Of a DNA stretch of 64,000 nt, positions 774 through 45,529 are shown piece by piece. The position numbers and the translations under genes were made by a program. Below the pieces are notes generated by a model. That model was given only the letters and a program-made list of their open reading frames with translations. It did not search any database and was not told the origin of the DNA. The stretch lies in assembly GCA_020724805.1 (NCBI GenBank), contig DYGI01000001.1, positions 8,934 to 72,933 on the forward strand, given 5' to 3'. The DNA is from Candidatus Microgenomatus sp. GTDB taxonomy: Bacteria > Patescibacteriota > Minisyncoccia > UBA6257 > GWB1-50-10. The number at the start of each line of letters is the position of its first letter. Position 1 is the stretch's first letter.

Positions 774-922
774 TGTCGGGGCATTGGGAAGCGAACGTCG
801 CTTCGCTCCCTGAAACCCTTCGGTTTCAGTACTTCCGGCGCGGGAAACCTCTCCTTTGCGGTTTCCCGACCCCTTCCCTGTCCGATTCCCAGCACGACGG
901 GAAGAAACTCGTGCCGAATTTG
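774..922 (-). mobile_element. tRNA-flanking structured insert, family A (Pro copy)
   Basis: 774-790 is a 17-nt direct repeat of the tRNA-Pro 3' end (tgtcggggcattgggaa). A ~130-bp insert follows with hairpins 810-829 (ctgaaacc-CTTC-ggtttcag) and 841-868 (cgggaaacc...ggtttcccg). Homologous to inserts at 38346-38543 and 39501-39654. Confidence 0.5.
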
Positions 923-993
923 TCGGGGCATTGGGAATCGAACCCAAGCTACGGAGTCCCGAACCCCGCGTACTACCACTATACTATGCCCCG
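923..993 (-). tRNA. tRNA-Pro (anticodon CGG), no encoded CCA
   Basis: Acceptor CGGGGCA/TGCCCCG, anticodon loop UUCGGGA, T-loop TTCGATT; hand-folded. Confidence 0.7.
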
Positions 994-1934
994 TTCCGCT
1001 CTCCATTAAACCTTGGAGGCTCAAAAAAATCCACTATACCTTGGTAGGTGAGGTCTGCAAGTGCGGGAAAAAGCTGTGCGCGTGCATTCTTGTCCACAAA
1101 ATAGGGCTCGTATATGTACCCGTACTCAATGAGGAGCGAGGCGGGATAGAGCGAGCCGTATGCGCCCACCGCGATAAGCTCTTGGTCCTCCACCACCCCT
1201 TCTTTTTCCTGAGGATAGTTGCTCACGGTAAGCGCGGTATTGAGCCGCGCTTTCACCGTATTCGCAAGCGCGCGACTCGCACGCGCATTGGGGAATTGGG
1301 ATTCGGGAACATAGATGCTAAAGCCGGTGTACCGCCCCGGCCGGGACGCTCGCGCCCTTGGATAATCGTTGAAGTGGATATGAAGAAGCGCGTCTACTCC
1401 ATTCTCATTCGCCCACAAGTTGATGCCGTAGAGTCGCCGTACGATTTCACTCGCCGCAAACCCGTGGTAGTTTTCCGTGACCGGTACTACGTCACCACGC
1501 GCAACCGCGCTCGCAAAAACCGCACGCACATAATCACGAAACTCCCAAATGAGCGATGAAAAAGTCTCAAAATGGTCCGCAAATTCATCCTTATACTCCC
1601 CGCTCTCGCGCGTAATGGTAACCGCAAAGCGCGGGTCTCCGGCAAAGCGGTCGCGCACCATTTTCCCCAATTCCAGCGTAAGGTCCGCTTCTCGCGTCCC
1701 CTTATACTCAGTGCCCCAAAATTCATCATCGTGGCCTGGCACCACAAGTATCCGGATTGGCACGCGAGATTCGTATTTCGCCCGAAGCGTTTCGGGCGTT
1801 ATTCTCTCGGGCGCGACAAGCGCCGCCAGCGAATCCCTCGCGTCGGGTAAGGGAAGCGGATTCCACACAAACGCGAGAAAAACAAAAGCCGCTCCACCAA
1901 GTACGCCAAGAACCGTGCGCCACATGAAGGTCAT
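984..1934 (-). CDS. N-acetylmuramoyl-L-alanine amidase (Amidase_3 family)
   Basis: 316 aa, N-terminal TM/signal, motifs ILVVPGHDD and HIHFND typical of cell-wall amidase_3; 3' end abuts/overlaps tRNA-Pro by ~10 nt. Confidence 0.7.
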   Translation of the reverse strand: MTFMWRTVLGVLGGAAFVFLAFVWNPLPLPDARDSLAALVAPERITPETLRAKYESRVPIRILVVPGHDDEFWGTEYKGTREADLTLELGKMVRDRFAGDPRFAVTITRESGEYKDEFADHFETFSSLIWEFRDYVRAVFASAVARGDVVPVTENYHGFAASEIVRRLYGINLWANENGVDALLHIHFNDYPRARASRPGRYTGFSIYVPESQFPNARASRALANTVKARLNTALTVSNYPQEKEGVVEDQELIAVGAYGSLYPASLLIEYGYIYEPYFVDKNARAQLFPALADLTYQGIVDFFEPPRFNGERNGA

Positions 1935-3385
1935 TTCACGAAATACCGTTTTTTCATCTCTTCCTCCAATCCGCTTTCGAACTCCTCCTTTTTTTCTCGC
2001 GCCGCGCGCGCAAGCGATTCCAATTCCTCTTCTTTAAGACCCGCAAGTTCTTTCACGCGCGGCTCAAGATATTCCTTAGTATTTCGTTTAGGGTCATCAA
2101 GCACCTCTTCCAACAACACGCCGAGTATCTTTCCTATCTTCGGCCCGGGTTCCATCCCTAATATTTTCATCACCTCATCCCCTTTCACCGCGAGCATTTT
2201 CGGGTGTATCGGGTCTTTCTTCACCTTCTCCATCATAAAAAGGAGGTGGCGAAGCTTGTAGGGGAACGCTTTGGGCACTCCCGAACCTATGCGGTCTCCC
2301 TCGCGCACCTTCAAAAGGTCATCGATGTATTCCGGCCCCACGCGCGCGATAAAGCGCCGCACACCTGCTTCCGAAACCTCACCCACGTTGTAGTAAAAAA
2401 GGTGATGGCGCACGAGATGCACCACGCGCTCGGCCACATCCTTGCCAAACCTCAGCCTGTCCATAATGATGGCGGCCATCTTCGCACCCACCACTTCGTG
2501 GTTGTAAAAAGTGGAGTCCGGTCCGTCCCCGCGCTTTGTTTTGGGCTTGCCCACATCATGGAGGAGCGAGGCAAGACGCACCTCAAAGGAATATCCTTTC
2601 TCCGCCGCATAGTGGAGTGCCCGCACATTGTGGTCAAACACGGTGTAAATATGATGTTTGTTCTGGCCACACCCTATGCCTTCGCGCAGTTCGGGTACTA
2701 CGAATTTCAAAAGGCCTAAATCCTCCATTGCGACCACGCCTTCCGCCGCACGCGGACTCATTATCAATTTCACGAATTCGTCCCGAATGCGCTCCTTCGC
2801 TATTGCCTCAAGAAGACTTGCGTGATGTATGACTGCTTTTTTGGTATTTTCCTCAATTTCAAATCCGAGTTCCGTGGCGAGACGTACCGCGCGCATCAAA
2901 CGAAGCGCATCCTCTTCAAAGCGCGCTTTGGGATTGCCCACGGTGCGAATCGTTTTTTTCTTAAGATCCGCGACGCCTTCATGCGGGTCAACAATATCTC
3001 TGGAAATGTTCGCGGCGATGGCGTTCACGGTAAAATCGCGACGCGAGAGATCTTCCTCGATGGTCTTCGCAAACTTTACTTCGTCGGGATGCCGAAAATC
3101 GGTGTAGCGACCTTCGATACGGAACGTGGTAACCTCCACGATTTTCAGCGTTGGGTCATCCGATTCCGTCTTCACGCCGACCGTGCCGAACGTATTTTCA
3201 TACACGCTTTCGGGAAAAAGCTCCTGCACCTTGTCAGGCGTGGCGTCGGTTGCCACATCCCAGTCTTTGGGCGCGCGCTTCAAGAGAAGATCTCGGAGGC
3301 ACCCGCCCACCAGAAAGGCCTGGTGCCCATTTTTTTTAAGCGTCTCCGCGATATTCCTCACTTCTTGCGGAATAGCAAATTTCAT
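1931..3385 (-). CDS. cca: CCA-adding tRNA nucleotidyltransferase with HD domain
   Basis: Track ORF 1931..3556 overlaps tRNA-Arg. Start moved to the internal ATG (MKFAIPQ...); poly(A) polymerase head-domain motifs (GGCLRDLLL, DWDVAT) and C-terminal HD (HD...H) region. Confidence 0.8.
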   Translation of the reverse strand: MKFAIPQEVRNIAETLKKNGHQAFLVGGCLRDLLLKRAPKDWDVATDATPDKVQELFPESVYENTFGTVGVKTESDDPTLKIVEVTTFRIEGRYTDFRHPDEVKFAKTIEEDLSRRDFTVNAIAANISRDIVDPHEGVADLKKKTIRTVGNPKARFEEDALRLMRAVRLATELGFEIEENTKKAVIHHASLLEAIAKERIRDEFVKLIMSPRAAEGVVAMEDLGLLKFVVPELREGIGCGQNKHHIYTVFDHNVRALHYAAEKGYSFEVRLASLLHDVGKPKTKRGDGPDSTFYNHEVVGAKMAAIIMDRLRFGKDVAERVVHLVRHHLFYYNVGEVSEAGVRRFIARVGPEYIDDLLKVREGDRIGSGVPKAFPYKLRHLLFMMEKVKKDPIHPKMLAVKGDEVMKILGMEPGPKIGKILGVLLEEVLDDPKRNTKEYLEPRVKELAGLKEEELESLARAAREKKEEFESGLEEEMKKRYFVK

Positions 3386-3772: not shown

Positions 3773-3844
3773 CGCCCCTAGCTCAACTGGCAGAGCAGCT
3801 CCCTCTTAAGGAGAAGGTTCTGGGTTCGACCCCCAGGGGGCGGA
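3773..3844 (+). tRNA. tRNA-Lys (anticodon CUU), no encoded CCA
   Basis: Acceptor CCGCCCC/GGGGCGG, anticodon loop CUCUUAA (G27:A43 mismatch in stem), T-loop TTCGACC. Confidence 0.7.
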
Positions 3845-4008
3845 CAACAAAGTTGGACGACCGTAGCTCTGCGCCTGCGCGCCGAGCGACCTTGGGGTCG
3901 AACGTCGGAGCATATGCGGCGCAGCAGCGCTGCACGCGAGACGGTGCCCAGTCCGAAGGCGCGTGACGGCGCGCCGAGAGACGCGGGAGACCCCCAGGGG
4001 GCGGACAA
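3845..4008 (+). repeat. tRNA-flanking insert, family B (Lys copy), with direct repeat of tRNA 3' end
   Basis: A ~145-bp GC-rich insert follows tRNA-Lys. A 20-nt exact copy of the tRNA 3' end (gacccccagggggcggacaa) sits at 3989-4008. The tRNA-Leu insert at 45201-45326 has the same architecture and a similar start. Confidence 0.45.
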
Positions 4009-18327: not shown

Positions 18328-19533
18328 TCAGAACGCTTTGGTGAGATTATAGAGCGGGAGAAGAATTGCCGCGAAAAGTCCCGCGATCATGAGACCGATG
18401 ACCACAAGGAGCGCGGGCTGAATGAGTTCCACCAGATTAGATACCGTGTCATCCACTTGACGATTGTAGAACGAGGATACTCTCTCAAGCATCGACTCCA
18501 GACGTCCGGTGGACTCCCCCACCGCTACGAGTTGATACACGAGCGGAGGAAAATACGGCGCGCCCTTCAGGGCCTGTGAAAGAAGAAGTCCTTTACGAAT
18601 TGATTGCGCCACTTCATGAAGAATGTCTTCATATACGTAGTTTCCGATGGTGTGCGAAGAGATCTCGATGGCTTGCGGAATGGTGAGTCCGCCCTTGATG
18701 AGTACCCGCGCCGATTCCGCAAACCTGGCAATGTAGACCTTCTGGAGCAACTTCCCGACGAACGGGATGCGCAAACTCACTTCGTTCACTACCGCTTTCC
18801 CCTCCGCGGTCTGCACATAATCAATAATAAGCGCGATGAGCACCGCAACCACGATAAGCAACACCCACCAGTAATTTGACATGAACACGCCCACCGCGAG
18901 GAGAATGCGCGTGAAAAGCGGGAGCTCCACCGCGACTTCGGTAAAAATAGGGGCGATTTGTGGAAGCACCATCGTAACCATAATGACCACCACGAGCACA
19001 AAAAGTCCGACCACGAACGCAGGGTACACCAGCGCGTTCCTCAATTTCCCGATGAGAATCGATTGCTTTTCTTGGTAATCCGCGAGGAAGTCCAAAACCT
19101 CCGAAAGACGCCCCGTGACTTCGGCGGACTTCACCATATTCACGTAGAACTCGTTGAACACGCCGGGGTGGCGCGCCAAAGCTTGGGAAAGCGAGAACCC
19201 CGATTCGATATCCGAAGCAACTTCCGACACCACCTCTTTCAAGACCGGCTTTGTCACCTGCTCGTAAAGCGAGCGGAGCGAGTCACCGATCGGAACCTGC
19301 GAAGCGATGAGCGTGGCAAACTGGCGCGTGAATATCATAAGGTCCGCGATCTTCACACGCTCGAAAAAATCGGTGATACGGTCCCACCATTGGTCCCCCT
19401 TCACCGGTTCGATGGTAAGCACATAAAGGCCGTGCGAGAGGAGTATGTTCACCGCCGCTTCACGCGACGATGACTCCACGTCCCCAACTTGGAGCTCGCC
19501 TTGTGCGGTTCTCGCTTTGTAGTTGAACTTCAT
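18328..19533 (-). CDS. pilC: type IV pilus inner-membrane platform protein PilC (GspF family)
   Basis: 401 aa; duplicated GspF domain, three TM helices. Confidence 0.85.
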   Translation of the reverse strand: MKFNYKARTAQGELQVGDVESSSREAAVNILLSHGLYVLTIEPVKGDQWWDRITDFFERVKIADLMIFTRQFATLIASQVPIGDSLRSLYEQVTKPVLKEVVSEVASDIESGFSLSQALARHPGVFNEFYVNMVKSAEVTGRLSEVLDFLADYQEKQSILIGKLRNALVYPAFVVGLFVLVVVIMVTMVLPQIAPIFTEVAVELPLFTRILLAVGVFMSNYWWVLLIVVAVLIALIIDYVQTAEGKAVVNEVSLRIPFVGKLLQKVYIARFAESARVLIKGGLTIPQAIEISSHTIGNYVYEDILHEVAQSIRKGLLLSQALKGAPYFPPLVYQLVAVGESTGRLESMLERVSSFYNRQVDDTVSNLVELIQPALLVVIGLMIAGLFAAILLPLYNLTKAF

Positions 19534-19814
19534 CCCGTTAGAGACAGGAAGCGCTTCAAGCGATTCTTGAGATAGCGCTTGCCCATGCCTGATTTGAGAT
19601 ATACCTCACGCGACCTTGCATCGGTGATATTTTTGCACATTTCATAGTAGACAAGCTCGAAAGGGCCACGGCCATTTGTCCACCCCACATGTTCGGTGTT
19701 GTGTTCTTTGAAGCGCTTCCGTAGGTCATCGGTAAGTCCAGTATACCAGCGTTTATCTTTAGTACTACGTAGGATGTAAACATAATAAACTTTGTTGTCT
19801 CTCACGGGATTCAT
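19530..19814 (-). CDS. GIY-YIG nuclease family protein
   Basis: 94 aa; VYYVYIL...GIY-YIG core (KVYYVYILRS...YTG...R..EH). Confidence 0.7.
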   Translation of the reverse strand: MNPVRDNKVYYVYILRSTKDKRWYTGLTDDLRKRFKEHNTEHVGWTNGRGPFELVYYEMCKNITDARSREVYLKSGMGKRYLKNRLKRFLSLTG

Positions 19815-45117: not shown

Positions 45118-45200
45118 GTCCGGGTGGCGGAATGGTATACGCAGGGGACTTAAAATCCCCGGCTCGAAAGGGCTTGTGGGTTCGACTCCCACCCCGGACA
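45118..45200 (+). tRNA. tRNA-Leu (anticodon UAA), long variable arm
   Basis: Acceptor GTCCGGG/CCCGGAC, anticodon loop CUUAAAA, 15-nt variable arm, T-loop TTCGACT. Confidence 0.8.
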
Positions 45201-45326
45201 CAAAGTGTCGGTACAATAAAGAAGTTGAAGCCAACTCGCACGCTCGCGAGCGAGGAAAAGCGCGAGTGGCCGGCGACGGAGGAGGCGCGTATGCGCTGGG
45301 GGAGGAGGACTCCCACCCCGGACACA
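45201..45326 (+). repeat. tRNA-flanking insert, family B (Leu copy), with direct repeat of tRNA 3' end
   Basis: A ~105-bp GC-rich insert, then a 19-nt exact copy of the tRNA-Leu 3' end (gactcccaccccggacaca) at 45308-45326. Confidence 0.45.
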
Positions 45327-45364
45327 GATTGAAGATTTTTTTTGCGTACGGTAGCATACCATCT

Positions 45365-45529
45365 ATGCAATGGAAGGTGATTGCGATATTGGTAGGACTG
45401 CTCGTTATTGCGGTGCTTGCATACGCGTTCCTTTCTTCCATTGCGCCGGAAGGAACGGAGTTGCCCCGCGGCCCCGTTGGCGCTCCGTATGTGGAAGGGC
45501 CAAGTGGTCCCCCGCCAGGGAATAACTGA
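45365..45529 (+). CDS. small hydrophobic protein (54 aa)
   Basis: ATG ORF MQWKVIAILVGLLVIAVLAYAFL... with one TM helix, between tRNA genes. Confidence 0.3.
   Translation: MQWKVIAILVGLLVIAVLAYAFLSSIAPEGTELPRGPVGAPYVEGPSGPPPGNN

What the first reader, a model, noticed from the sequence alone, without database searches (positions are those of the whole stretch)
45118..45326. Family B copy after tRNA-Leu (19-nt repeat of the tRNA 3' end)
gactcccaccccggacaca at 45184-45202 (within and just past the tRNA) recurs at 45308-45326 after a 105-bp GC-rich insert. Taken together, six of 18 tRNAs in this window (Pro, Arg, Glu, Ser, Lys, Leu) carry a distal 3'-end repeat. None of the four tRNAs with an encoded CCA do.
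Basis: seen in the sequence. Interest (0 to 1): 0.6.

Follow-up and report, generated by a model that had tools for sequence, protein, structure and literature searches.

The report
Guide-bearing mini-insertions at gene ends
The 19-base repeat after tRNA-Leu marks a tiny gene-less insertion; it belongs to a large, apparently undescribed group of elements in ultra-small (CPR) bacteria that carry a short antisense "address" matching the gene they sit in, plus a spare copy of that gene's end, so the gene stays intact.

Summary
GACTCCCACCCCGGACACA occurs exactly twice (45184-45202, 45308-45326), and six of 18 tRNAs carry a 16-20 nt distal copy of their 3' end. A relative (L137) has the empty tRNA-Leu site, so the window holds a 124-bp insertion.

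All six inserts share one plan: tRNA end copy, often a terminator hairpin, an antisense segment complementary to the tRNA T-arm, a structured core, then the displaced original tRNA end. They fall into three sequence families. The Leu copy groups with a tRNA-Asp insert in another genome, not with the Lys and Glu copies.

One family yielded 86 copies in metagenomes. They sit after at least 17 tRNA types and at the ends of protein genes (fusA, lepA, rplK, rnhA, trxB, rpsI, clpP). The antisense segment matches the intact local target across the junction, at a fixed distance from the core. The core hairpins covary. Duplicated protein-gene ends differ mostly synonymously, so the element brings a foreign gene end.

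No ORF, Rfam family, phage or plasmid match, or paper accounts for these. The best reading is an ORF-less, base-pair-addressed, gene-end-restoring insertion element. The enzyme is unknown.

The proposed link to CCA-less tRNAs is not supported (p about 0.23-0.25; eight CCA-encoding tRNAs carry elements).

The parts
45118..45201 (+). tRNA-Leu(taa), intact. Its last 18 nt are the left repeat copy. It follows tRNA-Cys after 5 nt.
   Evidence: ARAGORN; Rfam tRNA 58.1 bits
45184..45202 (+). DR1: left copy of the 19-nt repeat, running from T-loop position 57 to one base past C74
45205..45230 (+). Decayed antisense ('guide') segment. Block GTGTCGG (45205-45211) is complementary to CCGGACAC. Block GAAGTTGAAG (45221-45230) is complementary to the T-loop/T-stem GTTCGACTC. 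The middle has degenerated.
   Evidence: Duplex with the native tRNA 3' region is -19.0 kcal/mol, versus -12.0 +/- 2.8 for shuffles and -11.4 with the DR2 context. The relative L004 Asp has a perfect GATGGGATTTGAA at the same place.
45231..45307 (+). GC-rich structured core of 'family C': nested hairpin ACTCGC..GCTCGCGAGC..GCGAGT, a second hairpin GGCGCGTATGCGCT, and a purine-rich 3' tail CTGGGGGAGGAG
   Evidence: Fold; homology only to L004 7257-7364, E 2e-7 to 9e-6; no Rfam hit
45308..45326 (+). DR2: the displaced original tRNA-Leu 3' end, contiguous with the ancestral flank
   Evidence: The flank 45327 onward (GATTGAAGATTTTTTTTGCGTACGGTAGCATACCATCTATGCA) is orthologous to the sequence that directly follows tRNA-Leu at the empty site in L137.
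774..937 (-). Family A element at tRNA-Pro(cgg): DR1 937-921, hairpin 914-892, guide 891-880, core 879-797, imperfect target-left copy GTTCGC 796-791, DR2 790-774
   Evidence: (covariance model 90 bits)
3828..4008 (+). Family B element at tRNA-Lys(ctt): DR1 3828-3847, guide 3890-3903, core 3904-3988, DR2 3989-4008
   Evidence: empty site in L006 and a decayed 55-nt remnant in L004
38347..38558 (-). Family A element at tRNA-Arg(gcg): DR1 38558-38543, terminator-like hairpin 38541-38506, guide 38497-38486, core 38485-38369, GTTCGC 38368-38363, DR2 38362-38347
   Evidence: (65.6 bits); orthologous copy in L135
39220..39429 (-). Family B element at tRNA-Glu(ttc): DR1 39429-39412, terminator-like hairpin 39407-39371, guide 39337-39324, core 39323-39238, DR2 39237-39220, which abuts the ATG of the next gene
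   Evidence: orthologous copy in L135; empty site in L137
39501..39701 (-). Family A element at tRNA-Ser(gct): DR1 39701-39686, hairpin 39685-39647, guide 39636-39618, core 39617-39526, GTTCGACTA 39525-39517, DR2 39516-39501
   Evidence: (99 bits); empty site in L137, where Ser and Glu lie 12 nt apart

Best explanation
The repeat marks a miniature, ORF-less insertion element. It is one of six in this window (three sequence families) and belongs to a class that is widespread in metagenomes; the window genome is a CPR/Patescibacteria bacterium, and the hosts of the metagenomic copies were not identified.

Read on the element strand, each copy has this layout:
- gene body up to the target left half (L);
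- R', a replacement copy of the gene end (= DR1);
- x, often an A-tract/hairpin/T-tract terminator;
- a 10-20 nt antisense 'guide' that is Watson-Crick complementary to the intact target L|R and ends 3-5 nt before the core;
- a roughly 80-120 nt structured core;
- pL, an imperfect copy of L;
- R, the displaced original gene end (= DR2), followed by the native flank.

This order is what results when a circular or circularly permuted element, whose own junction pL|R' mimics the target, recombines with the chromosomal site L|R (Campbell-type integration). The host gene is rebuilt from L + R', so the insertion does no harm.

Shown: the insertion itself, the layout, guide-target complementarity, the structured core, the foreign origin of R', the multiple targets, tandem reinsertion, and decay.

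Inferred: the antisense segment, as RNA or single-stranded DNA, specifies the target by base pairing, and an unidentified trans-acting enzyme (or the core itself) performs strand exchange.

The Leu copy is an older member with a partly decayed guide.
For: Real insertion:
- L137 has tRNA-Leu followed directly by the sequence that follows DR2 in the window.
- Empty sites also exist for Pro, Lys and Asp (L006) and for Ser and Glu (L137).

Shared plan, different targets:
- Near-identical cores sit at Pro, Ser and Arg.
- 86 family-A copies lie after at least 17 tRNA species and at protein-gene ends.

Guide:
- It binds the native target at a mean of -25.0 kcal/mol, versus -18.0 for the DR2 context and -13.9 for non-cognate targets. 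The native target is the better partner in 41 of 44 cases.
- Paired spans hold 542 matches and 21 mismatches. The guide ends 3-5 nt from the AAGGGG of the core in 39 of 44 copies, with a median of about 6 nt paired to the left of the repeat boundary and about 7.5 nt to the right.
- For protein-gene targets, cognate pairing is -18.8 versus -9.1 for non-cognate, p = 0.003.
- All six window copies show the segment.

Structured core:
- P2 and P3 show 72 double-change cells versus 21 in shuffles (0 of 500 reach it); 94.8% of cells are paired versus at most 69% when the partner is slid.
- P2 loops are GNRA in 44 of 84 copies.
- A circularly permuted variant keeps the junction motifs.

Foreign gene end:
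- The functional and displaced copies of protein-gene ends differ at 46 synonymous versus 14 non-synonymous codons. Both keep the start codon.
- Stop codon plus terminator modules are orthologous but diverged.

Reinsertion and decay:
- L061 has three tandem units, and the distal one has a decayed guide.
- L004 Lys is a 55-nt remnant.

No alternative identity:
- No ORFs inside the inserts.
- No Rfam family.
- No phage, plasmid or viral-contig match.
- No paper found.
Against: - No trans-acting protein was found. The window encodes only housekeeping genes plus a 94-aa GIY-YIG protein. No cargo-bearing or autonomous copy appeared among the 86.
- No excised form was seen, and no filled/empty polymorphism within one population. 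L002 and L003 are the same strain as the window.
- Nothing shows that the active strand is RNA. Guide pairing shows no G.U versus A.C bias, and no promoter was recognised.
- Retargeting needs the guide and the carried gene end to change together, and I have no demonstrated route for that.
- Orthologous Glu and Arg elements in a genome about 70-77% identical at protein level keep the core at about 85-93% identity while DR2 decays. That looks like in-place constraint, which a purely selfish element does not obviously predict.
- The Leu guide is weak (z about -2.5).
Confidence: 0.68

Rival explanations
1. The element is mobile, but the antisense segment is a by-product rather than an address. It would be an inverted duplication of the target made during insertion, or kept perfect by quasi-palindrome template switching against the nearby gene end. 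Targeting would then be done some other way.
For: The guide, x and the gene end form one long imperfect palindrome. In some copies the complementarity extends over the whole repeat (8 of 35 with z > 2; Leu block GTGTCGG). In L135 the guide matches its own tRNA-Glu variant even though DR2 has decayed, as templated correction against the live gene would predict. This reading would also explain how guide and gene end change together.
Against: Distal complementarity is weak overall (mean z 0.8). The perfectly paired part has a fixed register relative to the core and spans the junction, including L, which the element does not carry exactly. In L021 the guide pairs with L plus the element-borne R', not with the displaced copy.
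Confidence: 0.15
2. The core is a self-acting RNA, a new small ribozyme. In this model it cuts at L|R' and at pL|R using the same guide, circularises, and reintegrates through an RNA intermediate plus reverse transcription, in the manner of a viroid or retrozyme.
For: The unit is bounded by two near-identical guide-complementary sites. GNRA loops, covariation and a natural circular permutation are typical of small ribozymes. A terminator is followed almost at once by the guide, as expected if an RNA 3' end were joined to its 5' end.
Against: No known ribozyme class matches. No reverse transcriptase is present in the window. A published survey reports no group II introns in Patescibacteria (PMC13011429). 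In L061, units 1 and 2 share the same x, rather than unit 1 carrying the downstream terminator as a read-through RNA copy would. For opposite-strand protein targets the guide has mRNA sense, so the target must be DNA or the antisense strand.
Confidence: 0.12
3. The region is a host cis-acting RNA of the tRNA 3' trailer, for example one aiding 3' processing or CCA addition of CCA-less tRNAs.
For: In the window all six copies follow CCA-less tRNAs. The core is conserved at orthologous loci.
Against: There is no significant CCA association, and eight CCA-encoding tRNAs carry elements. Related genomes lack the elements at the same tRNAs. In 17 of 30 tRNA cases a terminator separates the tRNA from the core. 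The same elements lie at protein-gene N- and C-termini on either strand. Tandem copies exist.
Confidence: 0.04
4. The repeats are scars (attL/attR remnants) of ordinary integrase-mediated prophages or islands that inserted in tRNA genes and were later deleted.
For: The repeat starts in the T-loop and runs to the tRNA end, as at T-loop-type att sites (established knowledge). A foreign gene end is carried.
Against: Inserts are uniformly 90-253 bp (median 150) with a conserved, covarying core. The same core serves many different targets. There is no integrase or cargo and no phage or plasmid similarity. Target-specific antisense segments are not a feature of att scars.
Confidence: 0.03

Closest known systems
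tRNA-targeting integrative elements (tyrosine-integrase prophages and genomic islands whose attP carries the tRNA 3' end)
   Same: The direct repeat starts in the T-loop and runs to the tRNA end. The element supplies a replacement gene end so the tRNA stays functional. The product has Campbell-type topology, and tandem insertions occur.
   Different: The inserts are 90-250 bp with no integrase or cargo. One core family serves dozens of different targets, including protein genes. A target-specific antisense segment sits next to a structured core.
IS110/IS1111 elements with bridge RNA / seekRNA (PMC11208160)
   Same: The target is specified by base pairing to a structured non-coding RNA encoded in the element. 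The logic is circular-intermediate, donor-junction versus target. The specificity is programmable.
   Different: There is no DEDD recombinase ORF. There is one guide that fits both the target and (imperfectly) the donor junction, instead of separate target and donor loops. Gene-end duplications are 14 to at least 60 nt rather than a 2-nt core. There is no sequence or Rfam similarity.
Group I intron internal guide sequence (P1/P10); group II intron EBS/IBS
   Same: A contiguous antisense segment next to the catalytic or structured core pairs with the intact target on both sides of the insertion point. Targets are conserved sites of housekeeping genes. Such introns are abundant in Patescibacteria (PMC13011429).
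   Different: The core is only about 100 nt with no group I or II model match. The element does not interrupt the gene and need not be spliced, because the gene is restored by a duplicated end. It occurs antisense to protein genes.
IS200/IS605 and their ORF-less derivatives (PATEs)
   Same: Small non-autonomous hairpin-bearing units. The target is read by pairing with a short internal guide beside a hairpin. Insertion is strand- and orientation-specific.
   Different: The guide is 10-20 nt Watson-Crick rather than 4-5 nt. There is a long target/gene-end duplication. There is no obvious replication-strand bias: both orientations occur within 3 kb.
Retrozymes and viroid-like circular RNAs
   Same: ORF-less units of 100-250 nt bounded by two identical processing sites, with a structured core and a possible circular form.
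   Different: No hammerhead, hairpin or HDV motif. Integrated site-specifically at guide-matched gene ends in bacteria. No RNA evidence.

Membership tests
tRNA-targeting integrase islands/prophages | Direct repeat of the tRNA 3' part at both ends of the insert | tested here: met
   16-20 nt exact repeats at six tRNAs
tRNA-targeting integrase islands/prophages | Integrase gene and kilobase-scale cargo between the repeats | tested here: not met
   Inserts are 105-180 bp in the window and 90-253 bp in 44 metagenomic copies. No ORF and no distant repeat.
tRNA-targeting integrase islands/prophages | One att specificity per element lineage | tested here: not met
   Near-identical cores at Pro, Ser and Arg, and at at least 17 tRNA types plus protein genes
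IS110/IS1111 (bridge RNA) | DEDD/RuvC-like recombinase ORF in the element | tested here: not met
   No ORF in the inserts. No transposase in the window annotation or among ORFs recurrent near 86 copies.
IS110/IS1111 (bridge RNA) | ncRNA with separate target-binding and donor-binding loops | tested here: not met
   A single contiguous guide 5' of the core; no Rfam match
Group I intron | Guide sequence pairing with both sides of the insertion site | tested here: met
   The guide spans the repeat boundary, about 6 nt to the left and about 7.5 nt to the right
Group I intron | P3-P9 catalytic core (Rfam Intron_gpI) | tested here: not met
   No hit at gathering threshold or at E <= 10; the core is only about 100 nt
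Group II intron | Six-domain RNA / domain V (Rfam) | tested here: not met
   No hit
MITE (cut-and-paste derived) | Element-specific terminal inverted repeats and a short fixed-length target-site duplication | tested here: not met
   The inverted repeat is target-derived and differs at every locus. Duplications range from 14 to at least 60 nt and carry synonymous divergence.
IS200/IS605 PATE | 4-5 nt target with no duplication; Y1 TnpA in the genome | tested here: not met
   Long duplication and a 10-20 nt guide. Presence of TnpA elsewhere in the genome is not testable here.
Known small self-cleaving ribozymes (hammerhead, hairpin, twister, pistol, hatchet, HDV) | Match to the family covariance model | tested here: not met
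   cmscan at E <= 10 over three elements found nothing inside the inserts
Diversity-generating retroelement (TR/VR) | Repeat pair differing at adenines, with an adjacent reverse transcriptase | tested here: not met
   Repeats are exact or differ synonymously. No reverse transcriptase nearby.

The most novel reading that the evidence does not exclude
The roughly 100-nt core plus its roughly 14-nt antisense segment would be a complete natural programmable insertion device. Either the RNA is itself the catalyst (a new ribozyme class acting on DNA or RNA), or it is the only specific cofactor of a common host enzyme. An ORF-less 150-bp unit could then insert at any sequence its guide matches, carrying a spare gene end. 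As a side effect it would keep overwriting the 3' halves of tRNAs and the ends of housekeeping genes with alleles from other lineages.
Probability: 0.2. Interest if true: 0.95.

Novelty: categorically new. Interest (0 to 1): 0.82.

Why it matters

These elements find conserved gene ends by base pairing and neutralise their own damage by bringing a replacement end. That would be a new way for mobile DNA to be both site-specific and reprogrammable.

It would also be a previously unnoticed route by which tRNA 3' halves and the first or last codons of essential genes are horizontally replaced.

It offers a compact lead for programmable insertion tools, with a single guide and a scaffold of about 100 nt.

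In practice, these elements cause gene callers to over-extend ORFs, and they leave orphan tRNA 3' fragments that could be mistaken for att sites.

Tried and rejected
- Rfam at gathering threshold over the whole window, and at E <= 10 over three elements: only tRNAs.
- Viral-contig scans with family A and family C patterns: 0 hits. blastn against phages and plasmids: no match.
- The genome-contig scan, spent on a family C pattern, gave one chance hit in Microbacteriaceae coding DNA. As a result there is no named host range for any family.
- Search for autonomous copies: no repeat partner within 9 kb and no recurrent recombinase or reverse-transcriptase ORF near 86 copies. The recurrent neighbours are the target genes themselves: EF-G, S9, RNase H.
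- Strand or RNA test by G.U versus A.C counts: uninformative, 6 versus 6.
- Fold-back origin of the guide, tested as complementarity over the whole repeat: weak, mean z 0.8.
- A fresh target-site duplication as the source of the repeat: rejected, because protein-gene end copies differ 46 synonymous to 14 non-synonymous, and trailers and terminators are diverged orthologues.
- The family A covariance model does not detect the B or C copies, so common ancestry of the three cores is unproven.
- The simple promoter/terminator scan did not flag the AT-rich hairpins. A custom scan found them in 17 of 30 copies.
- Exact-protein look-ups for taxon names of metagenomic loci returned unnamed entries.
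- Five literature searches found nothing describing these elements.

Full report
**1. The observation**

tRNA-Leu(taa) lies at 45118-45201 (Rfam). The 19-mer GACTCCCACCCCGGACACA occurs at 45184-45202 and again at 45308-45326. It occurs nowhere else in the window, even with 2 mismatches, and 0 matches appeared in 100 shuffles.

A scan of all 18 tRNAs shows that exactly six have an exact 16-20 nt copy of their 3' end 105-180 nt downstream. These are Pro-cgg, Lys-ctt, Arg-gcg, Glu-ttc, Ser-gct and Leu-taa.

**2. Host and insertion status**

The window carries bacterial housekeeping genes: CCA-adding enzyme, RecG, PheS, GatA, LigA, IF-2 and type IV pilus genes. Its RecG is closest to Candidatus Brennerbacteria and Jorgensenbacteria proteins at 71-73% identity. 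The source is a 570,864-bp JGI metagenome contig. The host is therefore a CPR/Patescibacteria genome.

At the orthologous locus in a relative (L137; neighbouring protein 69% identical) the gene order is RbfA, tRNA-Cys, tRNA-Leu. tRNA-Leu there is followed directly by TGAAGTTTGAAGATTTTTTTTCGGTACGGTAGCATATCATCCATGCA. This is the orthologue of the window sequence that follows the second repeat copy. The window therefore carries a 124-bp insertion, made of one repeat plus 105 bp. The distal repeat is the original tRNA end, still attached to its native flank.

Empty sites also exist:
- for Pro, Lys and Asp in L006;
- for Ser-gct and Glu in L137.

L128, L130 and L132 have no elements at these tRNAs.

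Conversely, L004 (RecG 77% identical) has an element after tRNA-Asp where the window has none.

**3. Anatomy**

All six inserts share one plan on the tRNA strand:
- the tRNA end (DR1);
- in Arg, Glu and Ser, an A-tract/hairpin/T-tract module;
- a segment antisense to the tRNA T-loop, the T-stem 3' strand and part of the acceptor strand;
- a GC-rich multi-hairpin core;
- the displaced tRNA end (DR2).

By sequence there are three families:
- family A: Pro, Ser-gct, Arg-gcg;
- family B: Lys, Glu, plus L095 Arg;
- family C: Leu, whose only detectable relative is the L004 tRNA-Asp insert.

A covariance model of family A finds only the three A copies in the window.

In the L004 Asp copy the antisense segment GATGGGATTTGAA is a perfect complement of that tRNA's T-arm. 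In the Leu copy it survives as two blocks, GTGTCGG and GAAGTTGAAG. Its duplex with the native tRNA 3' region is -19.0 kcal/mol, against -12.0 +/- 2.8 for shuffles. I read the Leu copy as an older, partly decayed member.

**4. The wider family**

Of those hits, 86 have the diagnostic hairpin.

About half lie 18-92 nt downstream of a tRNA of at least 17 different specificities. Each has a 14-32 nt repeat of that tRNA's end.

The others lie at the ends of protein genes:
- N-termini, with the gene on the opposite strand: EF-G (L021, L075), LepA (L081), another GTPase (L119), L11 (L114), RNase HI (L118, L125), TrxB (L013);
- C-termini, on the same strand: S9 (L090, L092, L104, L124), ClpP (L042).

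In every case the gene body lies on the guide side of the element and is completed by the proximal repeat copy. Inserts measure 90-253 bp with a median of 150.

**5. The antisense segment behaves like an address**

- Across 44 copies it pairs with the intact local target at a mean of -25.0 kcal/mol. The displaced-copy context gives -18.0 and non-cognate targets -13.9. The intact target is the better partner in 41 of 44.
- Within the paired spans there are 542 matches and 21 mismatches.
- Pairing ends 3-5 nt before the core's AAGGGG in 39 of 44 copies.
- The repeat boundary sits inside the duplex, with a median of about 6 nt to the left and about 7.5 nt to the right.
- For protein-gene targets alone, cognate pairing averages -18.8 and non-cognate -9.1, p = 0.003.
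- The element's own right end carries only an imperfect copy of the left half of the target, for example GTGAGAT against GTTCGAT. Sometimes a GCGAAGC mini-hairpin sits at the junction.

**6. The core is a conserved folded nucleic acid**

- For hairpins P2 and P3, 94.8% of cells are paired, against at most 69% when the partner column is slid.
- There are 72 double-change cells against 21 in shuffles; 0 of 500 shuffles reach the observed value.
- P2 loops are GNRA in 44 of 84 copies. The junction strands AAGGGGUC and GUGGCGGA are nearly invariant.
- Two copies (L054, L012) have the same junction motifs and P3 but with P2 opened and reconnected, a circular permutation with its own covarying stem.
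- Which strand is active, and whether it acts as RNA, is not shown. G.U and A.C counts are equal.

**7. The proximal gene-end copy is foreign, not a fresh duplication**

For seven protein targets, the functional and displaced copies both keep the start codon and reading frame. They differ at 46 synonymous against 14 non-synonymous codons, and several of the non-synonymous differences lie at the junction.

At S9 and at tRNAs, the stop codon or trailer plus terminator modules look like diverged orthologues.

This fits integration of an element that already carries a gene end from another lineage (Campbell topology). It does not fit staggered-cut duplication.

Other observations bear on turnover:
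- Tandem arrays occur. L061 has three units after tRNA-Gly, and the unit farthest from the tRNA has a decayed guide.
- Decay by deletion is seen at L004 Lys.

**8. Persistence**

L135 comes from the same sample as L004. Its neighbouring protein is 70% identical to the window's. It has orthologous Glu (family B) and Arg (family A) elements.

- The cores are about 85-93% identical to the window's, and one hairpin matches at 25 of 25 positions.
- The guide matches L135's own tRNA-Glu variant.
- DR2 has decayed to 13 of 18 matches at Glu, and is truncated to 10 nt at Arg.

So the guide tracks the live gene, not the displaced copy, and the core is more conserved than its surroundings. Two explanations remain open: ongoing turnover by active copies, or some constraint acting in place. 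I could not separate them.

**9. What it is not**

- No ORF lies inside the inserts.
- No recombinase or reverse transcriptase is encoded in the window.
- No cargo-bearing copies were found.
- No Rfam family matches.
- No viral, phage or plasmid similarity was found.
- Five literature searches found nothing. The nearest paper, on group I introns in Patescibacteria tRNAs (PMC13011429), concerns anticodon-loop introns.

**10. The CCA idea**

In the window the split is 0 of 6 against 4 of 12, p = 0.245. Among 103 tRNAs on metagenomic loci it is 8 of 52 against 13 of 51, odds ratio 0.53, p = 0.23. CCA-encoding tRNAs do carry elements, and their repeats include the CCA. The association is not supported. 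The protein-gene targets rule out a tRNA-maturation role.

**11. Mechanism**

Shown:
- the insertion and its layout;
- guide complementarity in a fixed register;
- a structured, permutable core;
- a foreign gene end;
- multiple targets;
- tandem reinsertion and decay.

Inferred: the element's joined ends (pL|R') mimic the target. The antisense segment aligns the target and this mimic. Strand exchange at the junction then yields L-R'-x-guide-core-pL-R.

Unknown:
- the catalyst (a trans protein or the core itself);
- whether RNA or single-stranded DNA is the active form;
- how guide and gene end are changed together when a new target is adopted.

Pro and Ser copies in this genome share unique core features, so such retargeting has happened within this lineage.

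**12. Verdict**

The finding is real and is the visible edge of something larger. It is an ORF-less, base-pair-addressed, gene-end-restoring insertion element class, with no match in Rfam, phage, plasmid or viral collections and no description in the searchable literature.

Noticed in passing
L054 4532-4633 (-), L012 9769-9883 (+): A circularly permuted form of the family A core. Hairpin P2 is opened (AAATTACC...GGTAATTT in L054; GCATCACCCC...GGGGTGATGC in L012) and encloses GUGNNGGA, P3 and GGGGGUCG. Natural permutation is typical of small functional RNAs.
   Followed up: partly
L061 1047-1700: Three tandem family A units follow one tRNA-Gly(tcc). Units 1 and 2 share the same spacer. Unit 3 has a larger P2 insert and a decayed guide. 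The guide matches this tRNA's unusual T-loop (TCCGA).
   Followed up: partly
L135 1-230 and 826-1020 versus window 39220-39429 and 38347-38558: Orthologous Glu and Arg elements in a genome only about 70-77% identical at protein level keep the core at 85-93% identity while the displaced tRNA end decays. This suggests constraint or repeated replacement.
   Followed up: partly
window 45266-45529: The gene called here in the source record (87 aa) starts inside the Leu element. The conserved small membrane protein more likely starts at the ATG near 45367, as in L137 and L139. The element has probably caused ORF over-extension.
   Followed up: no
window tRNA 3' ends (all 14 CCA-less genes): Almost all CCA-less tRNA genes still encode C at position 74, followed by a non-C base (ACA, ACAA, GCAG and so on). 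The CCA-adding enzyme gene (1931-3385) sits among the tRNAs. Its longest ORF overlaps tRNA-Arg(tcg).
   Followed up: no
window 19530-19814 (-): A stand-alone 94-aa GIY-YIG nuclease-domain gene lies between the pilT-like and pilC-like genes. It is the only nuclease-like candidate in the window. There is no evidence linking it to the elements.
   Followed up: no
L001 252-644; L006 1292-1657: A free-standing PF05635 (23S rRNA intervening-sequence protein, Avd-like four-helix bundle) gene lies just outside the window next to dnaB, with no reverse transcriptase beside it.
   Followed up: no
L139 778-950: In another relative, tRNA-Leu(taa) encodes CCA and is followed by an unrelated stretch of about 170 nt with no repeat of the tRNA end. 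This is a different occupant of the same site.
   Followed up: no
L084 693-765; L103 1302-1375: These loci show larger partial tRNA duplications (22 and 32 nt, starting in the T-stem 5' strand) separated by only 65 and 33 nt, with no recognisable core. They may be remnants or a different process.
   Followed up: no
L074 6109-6237; L093 3360-3477: These are 'orphan' family A copies. Their guide is of tRNA type (..GGATTCGAAC), but no tRNA lies upstream and the downstream tRNA-end fragment does not match the guide. Rearranged or hybrid copies are possible.
   Followed up: no
L128 7198-7434 (-): Between tRNA-Pro and tRNA-Ala in this relative there is a 237-nt spacer. It begins like a tRNA (GACCCTATAGTAAGGTGGTATTATGCGG...) but ARAGORN does not call it. 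It may be an intron-containing or degraded tRNA.
   Followed up: no
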